59,442 bases of DNA. Origin: Azonexus sp. (lineage in GTDB: Bacteria; Pseudomonadota; Gammaproteobacteria; Burkholderiales; Rhodocyclaceae). This document shows positions 11,901-22,754 of this stretch, piece after piece. Every line of letters begins with the position of its first letter. Position 1 is the first letter of the stretch. Location of the stretch: the NCBI GenBank assembly GCA_041918795.1, contig JAYRUZ010000001.1, forward strand, positions 1-59,442, given 5' to 3'. A program made the translations under genes and the position numbers. The notes under the pieces are model-generated. The model worked only from the letters and a program-made list of their open reading frames with translations. It did not search any database and was not told the DNA's origin.

Positions 11901-14216
11901 TTAGGCGACGACGGACTTGGTCGTACCCTTTTCGCCATCGACCAGAATCAAGCCGCCGTACTCATGGCGCAGCTTGTAGGTAATCTTGTCGTTGGAGAAC
12001 AGGCTGCCGACGTTCGGCATGTCCTGGATGAACAGCTCCGGCTCTTCCTGGCCATTCACGAAGCTGATCTCCAGCACCGCGTGCCGGCGCGGATCGGCGA
12101 CGGTCACCCAGTCGTTGCCATCGGTCCAGTGATTGACCGTGATCACCTCCGGGTTGATGGCCTGGACAAAGGTCTTGTCCAGATTCTGGTTGCGCACAAA
12201 GAGGTTGAACGCGGCTTCCTGCAGCTCGTAGGGCACCAGCACAGTCGCCGGGCTGACCCCCATGCGCTTTCCGCTGCCGGCGCGCGTCTGCTTGACCATG
12301 GCCAGGCGGTGCGCGGCGAAGGCCGTGGCATCGAGCGCAGAGGTGAAGAGATTGCCGTGATCGGCGTGATAGAGCGCCTTGGTGTCGTAGATCGCCGCGT
12401 TGGTGCGGAAGAAGTCGAAGGCAAATTCGTACAGCGTATTGCCGGCCGACAGAGCCATCTCAACCGGAACGCGGCGAATCGCGCCAACATCGTCAGCGAG
12501 GATCATCTCGCGGGTGATCGATTCGGTACCGCCGCGCTTCTGCGCCGCAAAGCTGGCCTTATCGTCGCCCGGGCTGCCGAGAGGTTCGTAATTGCCGCTC
12601 TCTGCCACGATGGGCAGATTGCCGTAACCGCCGATGCGGAAACGCTCCTGGGTGCGGAAGTCGTTCACACGGCCAACGGTCGCCACCTTGCGCCAGGCCT
12701 GCAGGTCGACGTTGGACACGTATTCGGCCTGCATGCGGCGGGTGATCGAGTTACCCAGGGCGTCGGCCCAGGAGGTGCTATCCAGCGCCTCGCGATAGAC
12801 GCCAAGCGATTCGGCCAGGCGGGCGCGGTCGCAGTCCTGCAGGCGGCCGGTCACGCGCTTGTCGCCGGTGACCTCGATGTAGGCCTCCCTGAACGACTGA
12901 ACCTGGCGATGATCCTTGTGCTGCGGATCGAAGAAGGCATCGAGCATGTCGGCAACGCGCGCCGAGCGATCCTCAACCTCGACCTCGAAAGCCGGCACGC
13001 GGACGCGGCCGGATTCGACGAAGCGTGCCAGGTACTCGCGCTCATCCTTGATCGCGGCCTCGACATCGGCCTCGACGAAGCGGTCGCGAGCGGCGAAATC
13101 GCGCTGCAGGCGATCCTTGGCCGGGGTCGGCAGGTTCGAAGCGTCGATCTTGGCGCGAGCCGTCGAACGAGCTTCAACCATGCGCAGGCGCTCTTCGGCA
13201 TCGGCCACTTGTTGGCTGAGGTTGATGGCCGGCGCCTTATCGGCAGCGACCGCTTCGCGGTACAGCGCCTCCAGTGCCTCATCGGTCACCGTTTCCGGAT
13301 CGATCTTGGCGTAAGCCTCCGGCTTCTTGGCCTCGATCAGGCGCAGCATCAGTTCACGCAGTTTCATGTCAGGGTCTCCTGTATTGACAATGGGTTCAGG
13401 GGCAGCTTCGACGAGTCGAATCAGGCGGCCCCCAGCCCCCGGCTCGACAATCAAATCAACGGAATCGACACGGTCGATCTTCTTCGGCACGCGAACACGC
13501 TTGCCTTCGAGCATGCGTACGCTGCCCTTCCCGGTCGCATCGATCGACAGGCCAGCGATATCCTGCTTGCCCGCCTTGAAGGCGCCGACCAGGAGCGCGC
13601 GGGTGTTCTCGGGCAGACCGGGCAGGTTGAGCGTGGCAACCACGCGGCCGCTATCCGGGCCGGCGCCCTCGATAAAGCGCGGCGCATCGGCCCAGCCGAC
13701 CACGTTGCTCAGGTCGCGGCCGTCGCCCTTGATGTGCTTTTCGTCGCTCTTCAGGCAGATACGCGCCCCGTCAAACAGCGGCAGCGCCTCGCGCAGCAGG
13801 GCATCGCTGTAGAACACATCGTTGAGCGAAACACCGGCCTGGATCAGCGTGGCCTCCCATACCGCGCCTTCGGCCTGACCTTCGGCCTCGACCAGGCGCA
13901 GATCGCCCTCAAGCGGCGCCGACTCCTTGAGCGGCACGAAGGTCTCGATCACCTCCAGCGGTTCGGCCAGGGTAGCCACGCCGTCGACCAGCGTATAAGC
14001 GTAGGACCAGTGGCGGCCATCCAGGCAGATCACTGCATGGTCGTCATAGACTGCATCCAGCTCGAACCATTTGCGGCCCACCTCGGCACCGGGGCCAGGC
14101 GCAGGGGAATTGATCTTGGCATCGAGCGCCGCGCGCACCAGGTTGACGGTGCGCATCAGATCGGGCGATGCCTCGCGCAGCGCCAGGCCGCGCAAACCGG
14201 AGCGGGGGAATTTCAC
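11901..14216 (-). CDS. Fused prohead protease-scaffold-major capsid protein
   Basis: 771 aa; protease motifs (KHIK, GLSID, DSVDLIVEPGAGG), helical middle region, and a C-terminal ~300 aa HK97-fold/Mu gpT-like region (ITREMILADD, LYHADHGNL). Confidence 0.88.
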   Translation of the reverse strand: MKFPRSGLRGLALREASPDLMRTVNLVRAALDAKINSPAPGPGAEVGRKWFELDAVYDDHAVICLDGRHWSYAYTLVDGVATLAEPLEVIETFVPLKESAPLEGDLRLVEAEGQAEGAVWEATLIQAGVSLNDVFYSDALLREALPLFDGARICLKSDEKHIKGDGRDLSNVVGWADAPRFIEGAGPDSGRVVATLNLPGLPENTRALLVGAFKAGKQDIAGLSIDATGKGSVRMLEGKRVRVPKKIDRVDSVDLIVEPGAGGRLIRLVEAAPEPIVNTGDPDMKLRELMLRLIEAKKPEAYAKIDPETVTDEALEALYREAVAADKAPAINLSQQVADAEERLRMVEARSTARAKIDASNLPTPAKDRLQRDFAARDRFVEADVEAAIKDEREYLARFVESGRVRVPAFEVEVEDRSARVADMLDAFFDPQHKDHRQVQSFREAYIEVTGDKRVTGRLQDCDRARLAESLGVYREALDSTSWADALGNSITRRMQAEYVSNVDLQAWRKVATVGRVNDFRTQERFRIGGYGNLPIVAESGNYEPLGSPGDDKASFAAQKRGGTESITREMILADDVGAIRRVPVEMALSAGNTLYEFAFDFFRTNAAIYDTKALYHADHGNLFTSALDATAFAAHRLAMVKQTRAGSGKRMGVSPATVLVPYELQEAAFNLFVRNQNLDKTFVQAINPEVITVNHWTDGNDWVTVADPRRHAVLEISFVNGQEEPELFIQDMPNVGSLFSNDKITYKLRHEYGGLILVDGEKGTTKSVVA

Positions 14217-14653
14217 AGCGCACCCACCAGCTTCTGGCCATCGGTCGTCACGACCGTAACCGTCTCGCCGCGCACCGCCCAGGCCAGCACCTCGGCCTCA
14301 TCAACCGCGACTTCTTTCGTCTCACCTGTCGGCTTGCCGGCATCGTCCAGCACGGGAACGATGCGCTTGACGGCAGCGGCCGCGACCGAAACGTCAATCA
14401 TGACAGCGTAGCCGGGGGCCTGATATGGAGCTTGAGGCGTCTCAACCGGAGGCGTCTCAACCGGAGGCATCTCAACCGGAGGCATCTCAACCGGAGGCAT
14501 CTCAACCGGAGGCGTCTCAACCGGAGGCGTCTCAACCGGAGGCGTCTCAGCCAGTGCGCCAGTAACAGACGCCGCCGCAGCTAGCGCTGCAGCAGCAGCC
14601 GCGCCGGCAGAAACCGCGCCAGGCTTGGGGGAACTTTGATTCTTGGGGGGCAT
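14213..14653 (-). CDS. First gene of the head operon, low-complexity protein with E(T/M)PPV repeats
   Basis: 146 aa, AGGAG RBS, GTGA overlap with the capsid gene. Confidence 0.75.
   Translation of the reverse strand: MPPKNQSSPKPGAVSAGAAAAAALAAAASVTGALAETPPVETPPVETPPVEMPPVEMPPVEMPPVETPPVETPQAPYQAPGYAVMIDVSVAAAAVKRIVPVLDDAGKPTGETKEVAVDEAEVLAWAVRGETVTVVTTDGQKLVGAL
14436..14549. repeat. 15-bp tandem repeat GGCRTCTCAACCGGA, 7 full copies plus 1 partial
   Basis: Seen directly; encodes ETPPV/EMPPV on the minus strand. Confidence 0.97.
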
Positions 14654-14737: not shown

Positions 14738-14825
14738 CGCGCTGGGAGATATTGGAGTGGACTGCTGCGGTGCACGGCCGAAAAACGGCAAAAACCAGAA
14801 TCCGTTTATACAGCGCGTGGCACGC

Positions 14826-15284
14826 TCAATTGCACTCGTCGCGAACGCGGCTGGAAGCAGTGTCCTGCTCACGCTTGGCCTGGTTCAGGCTGTGCTGCAT
14901 GCCCAGGTCGCGATACAGGGCGGCATCGCGTTCCGCCCACTTCTGCTGCCGCTGCGCCGAAGAGCAGCGCGTTGCCTTCTGCCGGGCAATGGCAGCATCC
15001 TCCGCTCCAACCCGATTGGCCATGCGCTGGTGCTGCAGATTATCGATAGCCTTTTCAGTTTCGACGGCGCCCAACTGGCGTCGCTCCCTGGAGTTAACGC
15101 GAGCGCGGTCGAGCTGCTGCTCAGCCGGCACGTAATCATGCATTGCACTGACATTCCGGGCATTGGCCGAACACGGCACATCGGAATAAACCGACTTGCC
15201 ATTGACTACACACTTGTAGGCTTGAGCCGAGGCCTCAACAGAGAGCAACAAAGCAACGAGAAAGAGATAGCGCATGATCGTCAC
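14826..15284 (-). CDS. Exported DUF4124-like protein
   Basis: Signal peptide ending ASA-Q, then AYKCVVNGKSVYSDVPC, coiled coil, terminal Cys pair. Confidence 0.75.
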   Translation of the reverse strand: MTIMRYLFLVALLLSVEASAQAYKCVVNGKSVYSDVPCSANARNVSAMHDYVPAEQQLDRARVNSRERRQLGAVETEKAIDNLQHQRMANRVGAEDAAIARQKATRCSSAQRQQKWAERDAALYRDLGMQHSLNQAKREQDTASSRVRDECN

Positions 15285-15394: not shown

Positions 15395-15904
15395 TTATTT
15401 TCTCTGCGCGCCACCAGGTAGTGGCTCAAGAGATACCTTGCATAGCATGAGAGCCTTGTTGAACTCATCTTTCTTCTCGGATGCTTCCTGAGCAAATACT
15501 GCGGAAGACGCCGAGGAGTCTTCCATAAAGGCGAGGAACAGATTTATAACGGTCTGCATGTACTGAACTAACGCATCGCGAGCGGGAGAAACACACTTAC
15601 CAAATTGGGCATCCTTGACTTTGCGCCGTATATCTTGAAGCCGCCCCACTGGTTGTGCCAAGGCAACGCGTGAAGTCACCGCTGCGACTTGTTTTGCCGC
15701 ATCCCATTCTTCGGCCAGACTCTTTAGTCGTGCAAGATCAGCCTCACCTTGGCGTACCTCTGCAGCTCGCTGCTCAATTGCCGCCTGCTTCGCCAATTCC
15801 TTTTGGTGACTATTCCAGGCAATCGCAGCAATAGCACCGACGATAACGATCATCAGGATATGGAAAAATCCGAAACCACGTTGTCGCTTAACCATGTTCG
15901 ACAT
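15395..15904 (-). CDS. Membrane-anchored protein with a type IV prepilin-like leader
   Basis: KRQRG/FGFFHILMIVIVGAIAAIAW, then a helical domain with two Cys. Confidence 0.7.
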   Translation of the reverse strand: MSNMVKRQRGFGFFHILMIVIVGAIAAIAWNSHQKELAKQAAIEQRAAEVRQGEADLARLKSLAEEWDAAKQVAAVTSRVALAQPVGRLQDIRRKVKDAQFGKCVSPARDALVQYMQTVINLFLAFMEDSSASSAVFAQEASEKKDEFNKALMLCKVSLEPLPGGAQRK

Positions 15905-15931: not shown

Positions 15932-16303
15932 TCAAGCCGCCCTGGCTGTCGCTGCGCCGGCCAGCATCGATAACAGCGCCAGGCCCATCGCCGGCAACTG
16001 CAATACCTGGGGCAAATGCGGCTGCCCCCACATCAATGTGCCGCTGACCGACAGACAAACCAGCATGAACCAGAAGCGCCGCCGCGCCGAACGAAGCGCG
16101 CGCTCCCGACGATCCAGCGAAAAGATATCGGCACCGCAGTGCACGCACCACTGAGTCATCTTCCAGGTCCAGCCATGACACTGGGGGCAATCACGACCAT
16201 GGCGATGCTCTGGCGGTGGCGGCACCGGGCCGCTGCTCAGATTCTGAATGGTCTCGGCCACCTGGCCGAAGTTGCTGTCGATGTCGATTCTGATCCGGGT
16301 CAT
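15932..16303 (-). CDS. Zn-ribbon protein with two C-terminal transmembrane segments
   Basis: CPQC-x10-CVHC and two hydrophobic segments; starts 1 nt after the repressor stop. Confidence 0.78.
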   Translation of the reverse strand: MTRIRIDIDSNFGQVAETIQNLSSGPVPPPPEHRHGRDCPQCHGWTWKMTQWCVHCGADIFSLDRRERALRSARRRFWFMLVCLSVSGTLMWGQPHLPQVLQLPAMGLALLSMLAGAATARAA

Positions 16304-16304
16304 C

Positions 16305-16910
16305 TCAGGTCTTGCTGCCGCTTCCCTTTCCTTGGCCGATATTCATGGCGCCGTGATTCGTCACATTCCCTTCTACCACCTGGCCGTGGTTGATACCGAC
16401 CTTCATTTCAACCCTGTCACCCTTGATGACATTGGATTGGATCATACCACCGGCATTTGGTGACTGTGTAGTGCGCTGACACAGTTTTACGACGGCTTTC
16501 GCCAGCTGCTGGGCATCGACCTTTCCTTCCAGGCTGAGCAGGTCGACGGCGTCGAGGACGGCTTGATGGACGGCATCTAGCGTGACTTGCTGCGCCGTTA
16601 TCGCTGCATGCACAGCAGCAAGCCGTTCGCCACCCCCGCCAAGGCGGGTGGCGACATCCGCTGCCGACCGAATGTTTGCCATGGCGGCATGAGCTGCCGC
16701 TGGGGTTCCAGTCAGGACATATGCAGTGTCGATCTGTAGTTCCGGATGCTTCGCGGCGAAAGCAAACAGCTTGTCCTCGGGAAACGAATCTCGCTTCTTC
16801 CTTGCGTTTAGCGCCTTTTCGCCAAGGCCGAGCAGTTCCGCCACTTCCTTATCGGTGGCAACGCGAAGCTGATTTTTCAACCGCAAAAGCGCTTGCTCAC
16901 AAAAGTTCAT
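16305..16910 (-). CDS. Prophage immunity repressor (c-like, N-terminal HTH)
   Basis: TDKEVAELLGLGEKALNARKKRDSFP HTH and YVLTG motif; divergent from the ner-like gene. Confidence 0.85.
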   Translation of the reverse strand: MNFCEQALLRLKNQLRVATDKEVAELLGLGEKALNARKKRDSFPEDKLFAFAAKHPELQIDTAYVLTGTPAAAHAAMANIRSAADVATRLGGGGERLAAVHAAITAQQVTLDAVHQAVLDAVDLLSLEGKVDAQQLAKAVVKLCQRTTQSPNAGGMIQSNVIKGDRVEMKVGINHGQVVEGNVTNHGAMNIGQGKGSGSKT

Positions 16911-16919
16911 AAAAACCCC

Positions 16920-16950
16920 TTGCAATTCTACTGTTGTAGATTTAATCTAC
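16920..16950 (+). promoter_or_regulatory. Early promoter with overlapping operator-like inverted repeats
   Basis: TTGCAA-17 bp-TAATCT; palindrome GTAGATT-T-AATCTAC (16936-16950) and TCTAC-TGTT-GTAGA; TAGAAT on the minus strand upstream of the repressor. Confidence 0.7.
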
Positions 16951-17003
16951 GTTTCACAGGCAGCAACCTAGTTACTAACCACCCCACAAACAGGAGCCCA
17001 AAA

Positions 17004-17234
17004 ATGGACCTGCCCTACAAACCGCCAACTGCTCAGCCGTACTCCACTGACCAGGTCAAACAATTCTTCGACGCCGCTGGCGTCCCCGTTGCGCGCTGGG
17101 CCGAATCCAACGGTTACAACCGCCGCGAGGTCTACATGCTGCTCAACGGCCAGTTCAAAGGCCGCTTCGGCCGCATGCACGACCTAGCTATCAAGCTGGG
17201 CCTGAAGCTCCCGCTCGAACAGCTCGCTGCCTAA
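17004..17234 (+). CDS. Ner-like / BcepMu gp16-type DNA-binding protein
   Basis: 76 aa, WAESNGY...VYMLLNG...KGRFGRMHDLAIKLGLK; AGGAG RBS. Confidence 0.85.
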   Translation: MDLPYKPPTAQPYSTDQVKQFFDAAGVPVARWAESNGYNRREVYMLLNGQFKGRFGRMHDLAIKLGLKLPLEQLAA

Positions 17235-18584: not shown

Positions 18585-19553
18585 GTGACTAACGAAACCA
18601 TCACCAAGCGCGGCCGCAAGCCTTTGCCGAGTGCTGTCGCCCCGGCGATTGAATTGAACGAAGACCAGGTGCGCGCCGACCTGCAGGCGGCCGATGCGCT
18701 GCCTGGCATGTTGGCCGCCATCGAGCAAAACGCCCAGGCCCTCGCCAAGGAACTGGCCTATGAAGGAGCTCTGACCGTCGAGTCGCTGGAAGAGGAGATC
18801 AAGTTCTACCAGCGCCGCAGCGTTGAAGCGGTGCTGGAAGTTGGTAAGCGGCTGCTGATCCTCAAGGAAGTAGCAGGCCACGGACACTTCGCGGAGCGAT
18901 TGAACGGCCTTGGCATCGGCTACGAGCTTGCAAAAAAATTCATGGGGGCAACAAAGAAATTTCAAATCGGTAGTCGACTACCGATTTTGTCTCTCCCCAA
19001 CCTCAACCAGGGAAAACTCCTCGAGCTCCTGGTCCTCGACGACGGCGAAATCGAAGCGCTGAACGCCGGCGACGAGGTACGCGGCATCCAGCTCGACGAC
19101 GTCGACTGCATGTCGGTCAGCGAACTGCGCCGCGCCCTGCGCCAGGAGAAGACAGACAAGGAAGCGCAGATCGCCAAGGCGAAGGCTGAGGTCGCTGGAC
19201 AACTGGCCGCCAAAGACAAGCTCATCGCCGAGAAGCAGATCAAGATCAACAACCAGTGCAAAGAACTGGACGATCTGGGCCGCAAGGTGCGCTTTGTGGC
19301 AACGGCCACGCCGGATGAACGCTACGAGGGTATTCGCACTGAGCTGCTCGGCTATGCAGCCGCCGTGGAAGGGCTGCTGAGCAACAAGCTAAAACCGTGC
19401 TTCGTGTCGCTCAAGGAAAATATTCACGAGAGCGGCGGTGAAGTCGACGTCTATCTGTCCAGCGCACTGGGCCAGATCGAGCGGGCGGTGCGCGAGCTGC
19501 GCGAAGAATTCGGCCTATTGCGCGCCGAAGACGTGGCCTGGGCCAACGAGTAA
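18585..19553 (+). CDS. DUF3102-like protein preceding the transposase
   Basis: EVGKRLLILKE...HGHF motif, coiled coil, position before transposase. Confidence 0.7.
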   Translation: MTNETITKRGRKPLPSAVAPAIELNEDQVRADLQAADALPGMLAAIEQNAQALAKELAYEGALTVESLEEEIKFYQRRSVEAVLEVGKRLLILKEVAGHGHFAERLNGLGIGYELAKKFMGATKKFQIGSRLPILSLPNLNQGKLLELLVLDDGEIEALNAGDEVRGIQLDDVDCMSVSELRRALRQEKTDKEAQIAKAKAEVAGQLAAKDKLIAEKQIKINNQCKELDDLGRKVRFVATATPDERYEGIRTELLGYAAAVEGLLSNKLKPCFVSLKENIHESGGEVDVYLSSALGQIERAVRELREEFGLLRAEDVAWANE

Positions 19554-21388
19554 TGGAGGCTGTCATGGCGCTGACCCCTGCCATCATCGAGGCCGTATTG
19601 GCCGCTACGCGGAAATCCATGTTCTCGCCGCATGGCGAACAGCGAGCGCCCTATCAGGCCGTCGCCGATACCTTCGGTGTCTCATATCAGACGGTGATGC
19701 GCTGGCGTAGCCAGGTAGCGACTCTGCCAGGGCGCAAGCGGCGGTCAGACCATGGCAATCGCGAGCTGTCCTATGAAGAAGCCATGGTGATCTCAGCCTT
19801 CATGGCCGAGAGCGAGCGCCGCAATGGCAAGCGCCTGGCCAGCGTTGGTCATGCGGTCACGGCGTTGCGTGCCAACGGCCTGATTCGCGCCGAGGCAATT
19901 GACCGCAAAACAGGCGAATTGCGGCCATTGTCGACCTCCGCGATTGCGCGGGCGTTGATCTCATTTGGCCTGCACCCAGATGTGCTGAACCGTCCGGCGC
20001 CTGCAATCTCGCTCGCCTCCCGGCACCCCAACCACGTCTGGCAGATCGACGCTTCGCTGTGCGTGCTCTATTACCTGAAGCGCAATCCGGACGAGCGCCG
20101 CAACGGCCTGCAGGTGATGGATCGCAAGGCGTTCTACAAGAACAAGCCGGGCAATGTCGCCAAGATCGAAAACGACCGCGTTTGGCGCTATGCCGTCACC
20201 GACCACGCCAGCGGCCATATTTATGTCGAGTATGTGCTCGGCGCCGAATCTGGCGAAAACCTCTGCACCACGTTCATCAACGCCATGTTGCCGCGCGATG
20301 GCGAGCCGGTGCACGGCGTGCCTTTCATGGCCATGCTCGACCCAGGCAGTGCCAACACGGGCGCGGTGTTCAAGAATCTATGCAAGGCGTTGCGCATCAA
20401 GGTTCAGATCAACGAACCGGGCAACCCGCGCGCCAAGGGCCAGGTTGAGAAGGCGCACGACCAGATTGAGCGCACGTTCGAATCCGGCCTTAAGTTCGTT
20501 GCGGTGCATTCGCTGGATGAATTGAATTCAGCAGCAGCCAAGTGGCGCCGTTGGTTTAACGGAAATTCGCTACACACCCGGCACGGCATGACGCGATACG
20601 CCGCCTGGATGTTGATTACCCCCGAGCAATTGCAGCTGGCGCCACCGCTTGAGGTGCTGCGCGAATTGGCGAGATCGGAGCCGGAATCACGCCTGGTCAA
20701 CAACAAGCTGCAGGTTAGCTACCGTGGGCAGAGCTACGACGTATCGAAAGTGCCGGGGGTACAGAACGGCGACAAGGTTTGGGTCTGCCGCAACCCGTGG
20801 CGACCGGAAGCGGCTCAGGTGGTCACGGTCGACCTCGAAGGGAACGATGTCTATTACGTGATCGAGCCGATCGGCAAGGGTGATTTCGGCTTCGATACCA
20901 ATGCCGTGGTTATCGGCGAAGGCTATGCCCGCCATGCCGATACGCCGGCCCAGTCGGCCGGCAAGGAAATCGAAAAACTGCTGATGGGCGCCGACACACT
21001 GAGCGAAGCCGAACTGGCGCGCAAGGAGAAGCGGCTGGCTTTCAATGGGGCCATCGATCCCTGGAAGCACATGGACCACGCCAACGAACAGGCGCCTGCT
21101 TATCTGCCGCGCCGTGGCACTGAATTGGAGACCGCCGTGCCCGGCGTGATCGCCAATCGCTCGCTCGATACGCCGCCGGCAATCGCCGTCGAGGCCCGCA
21201 CGCTCAACCTGACTCAACTGGCCAGCCGTGTCGCCGCCGCCATGCCCGGCGAATGGACGCCAGACCACTACCGCCGTCTGGCCGAGTGGTACCCGCAGGG
21301 CGCGCCGGAGAACCAGCTGGCCGCCATTGTCGATCGCATGAAGGGATTCGGGGAATCGCCACGGCTGGTTGCCGTGGGCGGTGCCTGA
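19553..21388 (+). CDS. DDE transposase (MuA-like)
   Basis: WQIDAS / MLDPGSAN / KGQVEK catalytic triad, N-terminal HTH. Confidence 0.92.
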   Translation: MEAVMALTPAIIEAVLAATRKSMFSPHGEQRAPYQAVADTFGVSYQTVMRWRSQVATLPGRKRRSDHGNRELSYEEAMVISAFMAESERRNGKRLASVGHAVTALRANGLIRAEAIDRKTGELRPLSTSAIARALISFGLHPDVLNRPAPAISLASRHPNHVWQIDASLCVLYYLKRNPDERRNGLQVMDRKAFYKNKPGNVAKIENDRVWRYAVTDHASGHIYVEYVLGAESGENLCTTFINAMLPRDGEPVHGVPFMAMLDPGSANTGAVFKNLCKALRIKVQINEPGNPRAKGQVEKAHDQIERTFESGLKFVAVHSLDELNSAAAKWRRWFNGNSLHTRHGMTRYAAWMLITPEQLQLAPPLEVLRELARSEPESRLVNNKLQVSYRGQSYDVSKVPGVQNGDKVWVCRNPWRPEAAQVVTVDLEGNDVYYVIEPIGKGDFGFDTNAVVIGEGYARHADTPAQSAGKEIEKLLMGADTLSEAELARKEKRLAFNGAIDPWKHMDHANEQAPAYLPRRGTELETAVPGVIANRSLDTPPAIAVEARTLNLTQLASRVAAAMPGEWTPDHYRRLAEWYPQGAPENQLAAIVDRMKGFGESPRLVAVGGA

Positions 21389-21497: not shown

Positions 21498-22754
21498 ATG
21501 AGTGCCCAGCCGAGCGAATTTAGAGGACATCCGTACATGCCGCTCAAACTTAAAGGTGTGATGAAACGGCACGGTATCGCGGTCCGCCAACTCGCGCCAT
21601 CGATCAAGCAGGCGCGCGATATCCCGCTGAGCAGCGCCTCGCTCAGCCAGATCATCAATCACGGCTACTTCCCGCGCAATCTGCCCGAGGCAGAGATGAA
21701 GCAGCGCATCGAAGCCTCGCTGCTCAGCCGAGGCATTGATGCCGCCGAACTGGCCGATTGCTGGGAGCCCGAGGGCGACGACAAATACCGCCGCGTCATG
21801 CCGATCGGCGCCCACCTCGATAAGACCGCCGAAAACCGCACCCCGCGCCTGCATGTCGTCGAACCCGATTTCAAACCTTTGGAGAATCAGATGCTTTCCC
21901 CCCAAGCCAAGCGCCATTTCAAGCTCTTCCGCGACCCGTTCATCGATGACATCAACGGTCCGGACGACGTGTATATGAGCGAATCGCAACGGTATGTGGT
22001 GGAAGCGATGCTGCAGACGGCCATGGTCGGCGGCATCACCGCCATCATCGGCGAGTCGGGCAGCGGCAAGACCACGCTGCGCAAGCTGCTGCAGCAGCGC
22101 ATCCTGCGTGAGGGCCAGAACATCCGCCTGGTCTTCCCGCAATGCTTCGATAAGACAAAGCTCAATACCTCAGCGATCGCGCAAGCCGTGATCAACGATA
22201 TTGAGCCGGATTCCGTCGTCAAGCAGAAGCTCGAAGCCGTGGCGCGTCAGGTCAGCGAGTCGCTGCTGCGCTCCAGCCGTGCCGGCTTCAAGCATGTCCT
22301 CTTCCTGGAAGAAGCGCACGACCTATCGATCACCACGCTGAAGTACCTGAAGCGCTTCAACGAAATCGAAAGTGAGGATGGCTTCGGCAAGGTGCTGGGC
22401 ATCATCCTGATTGCCCAGCCGGAAATGCGCGTCAAGCTGGATGCCTACCGCTTTCCGATGGCCCGCGAGTTCATCAACCGCTGCGAAGTGGCCACGCTCG
22501 ATCCGCTGCACAGCCACCTGGCCGACTACATCAAGCACAAGTTCGCGCGCGCCGGTGCCAACGCTGACGACGTGCTCGCCGCCGATGCCTACGACGCGAT
22601 CCGCGTGCGCTGGACGAAGATCGACCCGAGCACCCGCGAGGCCAAGACCAACCTCTACCCGCTGATCGTGAACAACACGGTCACCCGCGCCATGAACCGC
22701 GCGGCCGAGCTGGGTATCCCGCTGGTTAGCGGAGAACTGGTCAAGGAGCTTTGA
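21498..22754 (+). CDS. Transposition AAA+ ATPase (MuB/ExeA-like) with N-terminal HTH
   Basis: Walker A GESGSGKTT, Walker B LFLEEAH; follows the transposase. Confidence 0.9.
   Translation: MSAQPSEFRGHPYMPLKLKGVMKRHGIAVRQLAPSIKQARDIPLSSASLSQIINHGYFPRNLPEAEMKQRIEASLLSRGIDAAELADCWEPEGDDKYRRVMPIGAHLDKTAENRTPRLHVVEPDFKPLENQMLSPQAKRHFKLFRDPFIDDINGPDDVYMSESQRYVVEAMLQTAMVGGITAIIGESGSGKTTLRKLLQQRILREGQNIRLVFPQCFDKTKLNTSAIAQAVINDIEPDSVVKQKLEAVARQVSESLLRSSRAGFKHVLFLEEAHDLSITTLKYLKRFNEIESEDGFGKVLGIILIAQPEMRVKLDAYRFPMAREFINRCEVATLDPLHSHLADYIKHKFARAGANADDVLAADAYDAIRVRWTKIDPSTREAKTNLYPLIVNNTVTRAMNRAAELGIPLVSGELVKEL

What the first reader, a model, noticed from the sequence alone, without database searches (positions are those of the whole stretch)
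15932..16460. Repressor C-terminus and the next membrane protein's N-terminus share an amyloid/RHIM-like motif: candidate homotypic signalling switch
Seen: the repressor has no recognisable S24 autopeptidase domain and ends in an N/G/Q/V-rich tail (IQSNVIKGDRVEMKVGINHGQVVEGNVTNHGAMNIGQG). The gene starting 1 nt downstream begins MTRIRIDIDSNFGQVAETIQN, followed by a Pro linker, a CxxC-x10-CxxC Zn ribbon and two TM helices. Both carry an alternating-hydrophobic strand followed by N-x-G-Q-V-x-E. Known: a short motif at the C-terminus of one protein and the N-terminus of the adjacently encoded partner is the layout of HET-s/NWD2, RHIM and bacterial BASS amyloid-signalling pairs. Inference: the membrane protein could bind or template the repressor tail and tie the lysis-lysogeny decision to an envelope or metal/redox cue, without RecA.
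Basis: partly seen in the sequence, partly recalled or inferred. Interest (0 to 1): 0.8.

Follow-up and report, generated by a model that had tools for sequence, protein, structure and literature searches.

The report
Repressor tail matches membrane partner's head
The repressor of this Mu-like prophage ends in the same short peptide motif that begins the predicted membrane protein encoded right after it, and the two motifs change in step across dozens of other prophages, so the partner likely binds the repressor through them and may switch the phage on without the usual DNA-damage signal.

Summary
Observation confirmed. The repressor (16305-16910, minus; CI-type HTH, no S24) ends in a G/N/Q/V-rich motif. 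The gene 1 nt downstream (zinc ribbon, hydrophobic helical hairpin) begins with a matching one. This pair alone is only in the top 2% of its genome's gene junctions, but the family signal is strong. In 44 dereplicated, rule-picked loci, tails match their own neighbour's head better than other heads (37.9 vs 23.5; z 12.8). Several motif types recur while repressor and partner bodies are swapped. Synonymous codons agree no more than codon usage predicts (0.43 vs 0.40), so selection acts on protein, not on a recent duplication. All 15 repressors ending in a helix instead pair with partners that begin with an acidic helix. It is not RHIM and lacks Bell/NLR domains; it only works like BASS/Bab-Agp pairs. 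Best reading: a homotypic beta-stack couples repressor to membrane partner, likely as a signal-gated, RecA-independent antirepressor. Nine literature searches found no description. This scan reported the same pairing four times before on other DNA.

The parts
16305..16910 (-). Prophage repressor, 201 aa (ORF finder extends to TTG 16925), no S24 autopeptidase
   Evidence: divergent from a BcepMu gp16-family gene
16707..16892 (-). CI-type HTH DNA-binding domain (residues 7-68)
   Evidence: PF07022 E 8e-6; best PDB fold match phage 186 CI, not significant (E 1.2)
16467..16580 (-). Conserved two-helix linker (residues ~111-148) shared by the repressor homologues
16350..16415 (-). Repressor C-terminal beta-type motif (residues 166-187), followed by a basic tip
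   Evidence: low pLDDT as monomer; top hit among 8613 genome ORFs with a profile built without this motif type
15932..16303 (-). Partner gene, 123 aa, starting 1 nt after the repressor stop; phrog_17537-related family
16238..16297 (-). Partner N-terminal matching motif (residues 3-22)
16136..16189 (-). CxxC-x10-CxxC zinc ribbon (C39, C42, C53, C56 invariant in 52 aligned homologues)
15944..16072 (-). Predicted membrane helical hairpin (about residues 78-94 and 102-120) after an Arg-rich stretch; N-terminus predicted cytoplasmic
   Evidence: topology inferred from the positive-inside rule
17004..17234 (+). Divergent Ner/Cro-like BcepMu gp16-family gene opening the early operon (context)
   Evidence: TIGR04111 E 4e-20; phrog_925

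Best explanation
The repressor's C-terminal motif and the partner's N-terminal motif are a matched pair that co-varies across prophages and is predicted to stack together as short beta-strands, which would tie the repressor to a likely inner-membrane partner that likely acts as a signal-gated antirepressor. Shown: adjacency and translational coupling, matched motifs, co-variation, protein-level conservation, interchangeable partner bodies, no S24 domain. Inferred: (1) the motifs bind each other; (2) they do so as a cross-beta or beta-solenoid stack, as BASS11 does; (3) both proteins are made in the lysogen, so the partner must be quiet until a cue clusters it; (4) clustering templates the repressor tails and pulls the repressor off its operators to the membrane, inducing the prophage without RecA. 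The cue is set by whichever body is fused to the head (here zinc ribbon plus hairpin) and is unknown.
For: Cognate tail-head score 37.9 vs 23.5 non-cognate in 44 dereplicated loci, z 12.8, p 5e-5 (floor); repressor-anchored set n=27 z 8.5; partner-anchored set n=17 z 6.0. Score >=33 in 16 of 27 and 11 of 17, against 10 of 539 genome junctions. Tail similarity tracks head similarity (Mantel rho 0.39, p 7e-4; 0.40 after removing both bodies) but not repressor body (0.12, p 0.10). Same-residue codons identical in 127 of 293 vs 0.40 expected from usage; non-cognate pairs 0.42. Four of four listed variants across the junction in a related contig are synonymous. Motifs are enriched in Q, N, G, V, I and depleted in P, L, the bias reported for BASS (bioRxiv 2020.01.06.895854 section 9). 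All types align to one ~20-residue three-strand register. 38 of 47 partners have a hydrophobic segment. All 15 repressors that end in a helix pair with partners starting with an acidic helix, while L103/L105 carry a beta head and have tailed repressors: the facing ends change together even across module class. Some partners weakly resemble antirepressor domains (ORF6C E 6e-4, below cut-off; phrog_245 Ant E 8e-6). In Bab/Agp the protein with the N-terminal motif templates the one with the C-terminal motif.
Against: No binding, fibril or induction data. Tail and head are neighbours in DNA and travel as one cassette, so independent events number roughly the motif types, not the loci. 11 of 27 repressor-anchored loci score <33: the Aeromonas-type (L024, L031), L010 and L046 carry motifs of unlike type, and L008 has a tailed repressor with no motif in the next gene. 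The window's head is not found by a profile built without its type, and its tail scores higher with 7 other heads. Helix-headed partners keep an internal beta-rich segment with no repressor counterpart, so the motif can have a role apart from the repressor. The periplasmic loop is ~7 residues, poor for envelope sensing. The direction of signalling rests on analogy only.
Confidence: 0.45

Rival explanations
1. Constitutive tether or co-repressor: the motifs bind, but the partner permanently holds, oligomerises or shields the repressor at the membrane and so stabilises lysogeny and immunity; induction would need release or loss of the partner.
For: Translational coupling (gap -4 to +8 in most matched pairs) suits a stoichiometric complex; the helix-type pairs look like plain docking; the very short outer loop argues against a receptor.
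Against: Many related repressors have no tail and no such partner (18 of 21 in set C score <33). A constant tether would not obviously need many unrelated bodies or two motif-bearing partners (L013, L042, L081).
Confidence: 0.25
2. Repressor-coupled defence: the membrane protein is an abortive-infection or exclusion effector; the repressor tail (own, or of an incoming related phage) holds or seeds it, and stacking clusters its helices in the membrane.
For: All characterised pairs with this layout control cell death; the locus is the lysogen-expressed accessory slot; small membrane effectors are common in defence (own knowledge).
Against: No PADLOC match for the window partner and only two weak matches (E ~1e-3) among 11 other partners scanned; no Bell/HeLo domain; the motif is at the end used by sensors, not effectors, in BASS pairs; some partners lack a hydrophobic segment (9 of 47).
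Confidence: 0.15
3. By-product: old duplications of the partner's 5' end gave the repressor its tail; each copy is kept for its own self-assembly and the two proteins do not interact.
For: Physical linkage; the window pair shares 28 of 45 nt and an 11-nt exact stretch; helix-headed partners keep a beta-rich segment without a repressor copy; some loci are mismatched.
Against: Synonymous sites are at background, so the match persists after DNA similarity has gone; it recurs in many motif types; the switch to helix heads with tail-less repressors is not explained by duplication.
Confidence: 0.15

Closest known systems
Bab/Agp BASS11 amyloid-signalling antiphage system of E. coli (bioRxiv 10.1101/2024.11.07.622273; read abstract, sections 4 and 10, term passages)
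   Same: Adjacent genes in a prophage; ~20-residue motif at the C-terminus of the upstream and N-terminus of the downstream product; Gly-broken beta-strands with key Asn.
   Different: Bab is a Bell-type death effector and Agp a TPR-GreA/B-PIN sensor. Here the upstream protein is an HTH repressor and the downstream one a small membrane protein. The paper has 0 occurrences of 'repressor' or 'HTH'.
BASS1-10 Bell/NLR pairs (bioRxiv 10.1101/2020.01.06.895854; read abstract, sections 5, 7, 9, term search); HET-S/NWD2 and RHIM (recalled)
   Same: Tail-to-head layout with tiny or overlapping gene gaps; Q/N/G/V/I enrichment and P/L depletion; several parallel motif families.
   Different: No Bell, NACHT or NB-ARC domain; proteobacterial prophages rather than multicellular bacteria; no RHIM tetrad in this pair. 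0 occurrences of repressor, prophage, phage or HTH in that text. Motif logos are figures and could not be compared.
Non-cleavable phage repressors with protein antirepressors (phage 186 CI/Tum, P22 Ant, ORF6C-domain antirepressors; recalled) and the Mu repressor's regulatory C-terminal tail (recalled)
   Same: Repressor without S24 controlled by a binding partner or through its C-terminal tail; HTH of the 186 CI family; weak ORF6C/Ant similarity in some partners.
   Different: Known antirepressors are soluble, encoded apart and mostly LexA-controlled; none is known to share a motif with its repressor or to be membrane-anchored.
Burkholderia phages KS5 (gp11/gp12) and KS10 (gp13/gp12), Ralstonia phage YO107_2
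   Same: Isolated temperate phages whose repressor tail best matches the head of the next gene (scores 44, 41, 44; rank 1 of 21).
   Different: KS5 gp12 is annotated only as 'membrane protein' in PMC3091744 (term passages); no motif or function noted there.

Membership tests
BASS / NLR amyloid-signalling pair | Shared short motif at the C-terminus of one and N-terminus of the adjacent collinear gene product | tested here: met
BASS / NLR amyloid-signalling pair | Composition enriched in Q, N, G, V, I; depleted in K, P, L | tested here: met
   Q 1.6-2.3, N 2.8-3.1, G 1.8-2.1, V 1.7-1.9, I 1.6, P 0.4-0.6, L 0.1-0.2 fold; K is not depleted (1.0)
BASS / NLR amyloid-signalling pair | Bell/HeLo-type (or TIR, CHAT, hydrolase) effector upstream and NLR or TPR sensor downstream | tested here: not met
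   HTH repressor and zinc-ribbon membrane protein
BASS / NLR amyloid-signalling pair | Sequence match to a BASS1-11 profile | not testable with these tools
   logos are figures; bioRxiv supplements closed
BASS / NLR amyloid-signalling pair | Fibril formation and cross-seeding | not testable with these tools
   needs bench work; complex prediction unavailable
RHIM | (V/I)-Q-(V/I/L/C)-G core (pattern recalled) and Pfam RHIM match | tested here: not met
   absent from the window pair; tetrad in 3 of 65 tails, 0 of 65 heads, 1 of 63, 2 of 52 and 8 of 19 aligned homologues; no Pfam RHIM or in the top-25 lists
RecA-cleavable CI/LexA repressor | S24 autopeptidase domain | tested here: not met
   not among the 25 commonest families for 63 homologues; model shows helices and a loose tail
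ORF6C/Ant antirepressor | ORF6C or Ant domain | tested here: not met
   none in the window partner; weak, sub-threshold in 3 of 34 other proteins for ORF6C, Ant E 8e-6 in 1 of 25
Mu-like (BcepMu-type) transposable prophage immunity region | Repressor divergent from a gp16/Ner-like gene, then DDE transposase and AAA ATPase | tested here: met

The most novel reading that the evidence does not exclude
A prion-like lysis-lysogeny switch: a family of prophage amyloid motifs, with several sequence types, lets interchangeable membrane sensors template the repressor into an inactive, self-propagating stack. Mu-like and P2-like prophages would gain plug-in, RecA-independent induction cues, and motif type would set cross-talk between co-resident prophages.
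Probability: 0.3. Interest if true: 0.92.

Novelty: new variant of a known kind. Interest (0 to 1): 0.78.

Why it matters
How prophages with non-cleavable repressors (Mu-like and many P2-like) are induced is a long-standing gap. This names a candidate partner, a 20-residue interface, mutable residues and natural non-cognate controls, in isolated phages (KS5, KS10) as well as metagenomes. If the interface is amyloid, amyloid signalling extends from cell death to transcriptional control of a phage. Even as plain docking, it is an undescribed physical link between a lysogeny repressor and the membrane.

Tried and rejected
Complex prediction of tail x2 plus head x2 was not available, so there is no structural test of binding. 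Monomer models leave both motifs at low confidence (pLDDT ~45-65), and Foldseek gave no match at E<=0.001. A PDB profile search matched only HTH domains. Single-sequence searches of viral contigs found nothing; alignment A4 had no searchable stretch; tblastn of a partner homologue found nothing in isolated phages. Whole-genome samples gave few loci. The repressor tree was unresolved with long branches and is not used; the partner tree is quick-method only. ESM Atlas gave only unnamed or generic zinc-ribbon clusters at <=0.90. Promoter scan: 2 sites vs 1.0+/-1.0 expected, chance level. One RNA-library contig spans the junction (16225-16420) but does not show transcription. Rejected: RHIM membership; recent DNA duplication; metal/redox sensing as the general cue.

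Full report
Setting. The window holds a Mu-like prophage: a BcepMu gp16-family gene at 17004 (TIGR04111), a DDE transposase (19553-21388) and an AAA ATPase (21498-22754) run rightwards; the repressor and three accessory genes run leftwards. The repressor (likely start 16910, 201 aa) has a CI-type HTH (PF07022), a helical linker and a loose tail (model), and no S24 domain. The next gene starts one base after its stop and encodes a 123-aa protein with a head motif, Pro linker, CxxC-x10-CxxC ribbon and hydrophobic hairpin. Only the second helix passed my hydropathy threshold here.

The observation. Repressor 166-180 and partner 3-17 align without gaps around N-x-G-Q-V-x-E, and both families keep a second invariant Asn downstream. 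Score 33: shuffle p 0.003, but 10 of 539 adjacent pairs in the own genome reach it, this one included, BLASTP finds no alignment, and the tail scores higher with 7 of 43 other heads. On its own it is only suggestive.

Family evidence. I collected loci from both sides without using the motif: by the repressor linker and by the partner's zinc-ribbon pattern, plus six isolated-phage regions. Pairs were picked by rule. Of 127 loci, I left out 11 beforehand as duplicates or spurious matches; 10 more fell out for lack of a detected HTH gene or next gene (among them L109, which matches by eye); identical tails were merged to 90 pairs, and 65 remained after dereplication at 70%. For the 44 anchored pairs, cognate score was 37.9 vs 23.5 non-cognate (z 12.8, permutation floor 5e-5); repressor-anchored n=27, z 8.5; partner-anchored n=17, z 6.0; the result held at 50% dereplication (n=39, z 12.1). 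Scores >=33: 16 of 27, 11 of 17, and 3 of 21 in the HTH-only/phage set, these three being KS10, KS5 and YO107_2. The types differ in sequence but align to one ~20-residue, three-strand register broken by Gly. A profile built without the window's type finds 98 of 118 repressor-homologue tails and 68 of 128 partner-homologue N-terminal regions at >=5 bits, and ranks the window's tail first among 8613 genome ORFs; it misses the window's head.

Modularity. Tail similarity follows head similarity (rho 0.39; 0.40 after removing body similarity) and not repressor body (0.12, p 0.10) (47 loci). The window's type occurs with the same partner family behind quite different repressor bodies (L082-L084). 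A related contig shares 16250-16570 and then diverges, and another replaces 16802-16968. Partner bodies fall into several unrelated families (phrog_17537, 6521, 5825, 17822); 38 of 47 have a hydrophobic segment. In L013, L042 and L081 a third gene also starts with the motif. Because tail and head are adjacent, they move as one cassette; the independent evidence is the number of types, each matched within itself, not the number of loci.

Protein or DNA? In the 30 of 65 pairs scoring >=33, codons for identical residues are the same in 127 of 293 cases (0.43; usage predicts 0.40, z 1.15), as in equally scoring non-cognate pairs (0.42); position identities are 0.62/0.72/0.41. The window pair itself shares 4 of 6 such codons, too few to judge. 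Listed variants in related contigs are synonymous in 4 of 4 junction codons and 15 of 16 partner codons (low-depth contigs). The match is kept by selection on protein.

A second state. Among 32 zinc-ribbon loci examined, 15 have a repressor that ends in a helix with no tail; all 15 partners begin with an acidic, Leu-rich helix (E/L/D fraction 0.33-0.48 vs 0.05-0.24 in the rest). Most are close kin; the quick tree forces at least two changes (my rule mislabelled L092 in that tree). L103/L105 share the internal segment of the helix-headed partners but carry a beta head and have tailed repressors. L115 fits neither state. So the facing ends change together even between module classes, which points to a physical link (inference).

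Against. Eleven of 27 repressor-anchored pairs score <33: some were mis-picked (L055 has a short motif-bearing gene), but L024, L031, L010 and L046 carry unlike types and L008 has lost the partner motif. Helix-headed partners keep a beta-rich segment without a repressor copy.

Mechanism. Most likely the two motifs stack homotypically and couple repressor to membrane partner (about 0.8 that they interact). Layout and composition match BASS pairs, where the N-terminal-motif protein templates the C-terminal-motif one. With variable partner bodies, weak antirepressor-domain similarity in a few and no S24, I favour signal-gated sequestration of the repressor (0.45) over a constant tether (0.25), a defence effector (0.15) or a by-product (0.15). 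Direction and cue are inferred.

Literature. Nine full-text searches (listings and abstract starts only) found no description of such a repressor-partner motif. Term searches inside two BASS papers, a motif-detection paper (PMC12261475) and a 2026 review (PMC13506858, passages) found no phage repressor. The library lacks most subscription papers; BASS logos are figures and bioRxiv supplements were closed, so overlap with a listed BASS type is not excluded. This scan's earlier notes report the same pairing on four other genomes; I had reached my reading before, did not check their DNA, and count them as no support.

Verdict. Real, widespread and under selection; works like an amyloid-signalling pair but is not a member of BASS or RHIM; function untested. 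Interest 0.78.

Noticed in passing
window 15395-15904 (-): Third gene of the leftward run has a prepilin-like N-terminus (NF007660, E 9e-4, far below cut-off); possible pilus-related superinfection-exclusion accessory.
   Followed up: no
window 14826-15284 (-): DUF4124/phrog_7936 protein with a signal-like N-terminus; a close look-alike follows the partner gene in L009.
   Followed up: no
L088:2908-3390, L002:1483-1929, L061:613-1212, L004:1850-2569: Tail-less repressors ending in a helix are followed by genes starting with an acidic helix; in L004 and L110 two downstream genes share a beta-type motif. Possible second docking class or adaptor.
   Followed up: partly
L012:4276-4899, L017:4227-4979, L061:613-1212: Partner bodies with weak similarity to ORF6C, Ant, GemA and the flagellar regulator Flk (E 6e-5), all below cut-off.
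   Followed up: partly
window 16802-16968: A related contig (run X2) replaces the start of the HTH and the intergenic operator region with 176 other bases while keeping the rest: an immunity-specificity swap.
   Followed up: no
window 14755-14801: A ~40-nt intergenic element between the accessory genes and the late operon is shared by very many unrelated contigs; possibly a Mu-like late-promoter or regulatory element.
   Followed up: no
window 14213-14653 (-): Small gene with a tandem 15-nt repeat giving a Pro-rich pentapeptide array, just upstream of the 771-aa capsid-region gene.
   Followed up: no
repressor C-termini, window 16308-16330 and homologues: 29 of 30 well-matched tails end with two or more K/R in the last seven residues.
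   Followed up: no
P0141, P0144, P0167 and similar: A group of zinc-ribbon partner homologues lacks the beta head and has a long acidic, Pro-rich N-terminus with a short basic-hydrophobic peptide near the start; their neighbours were not examined.
   Followed up: no
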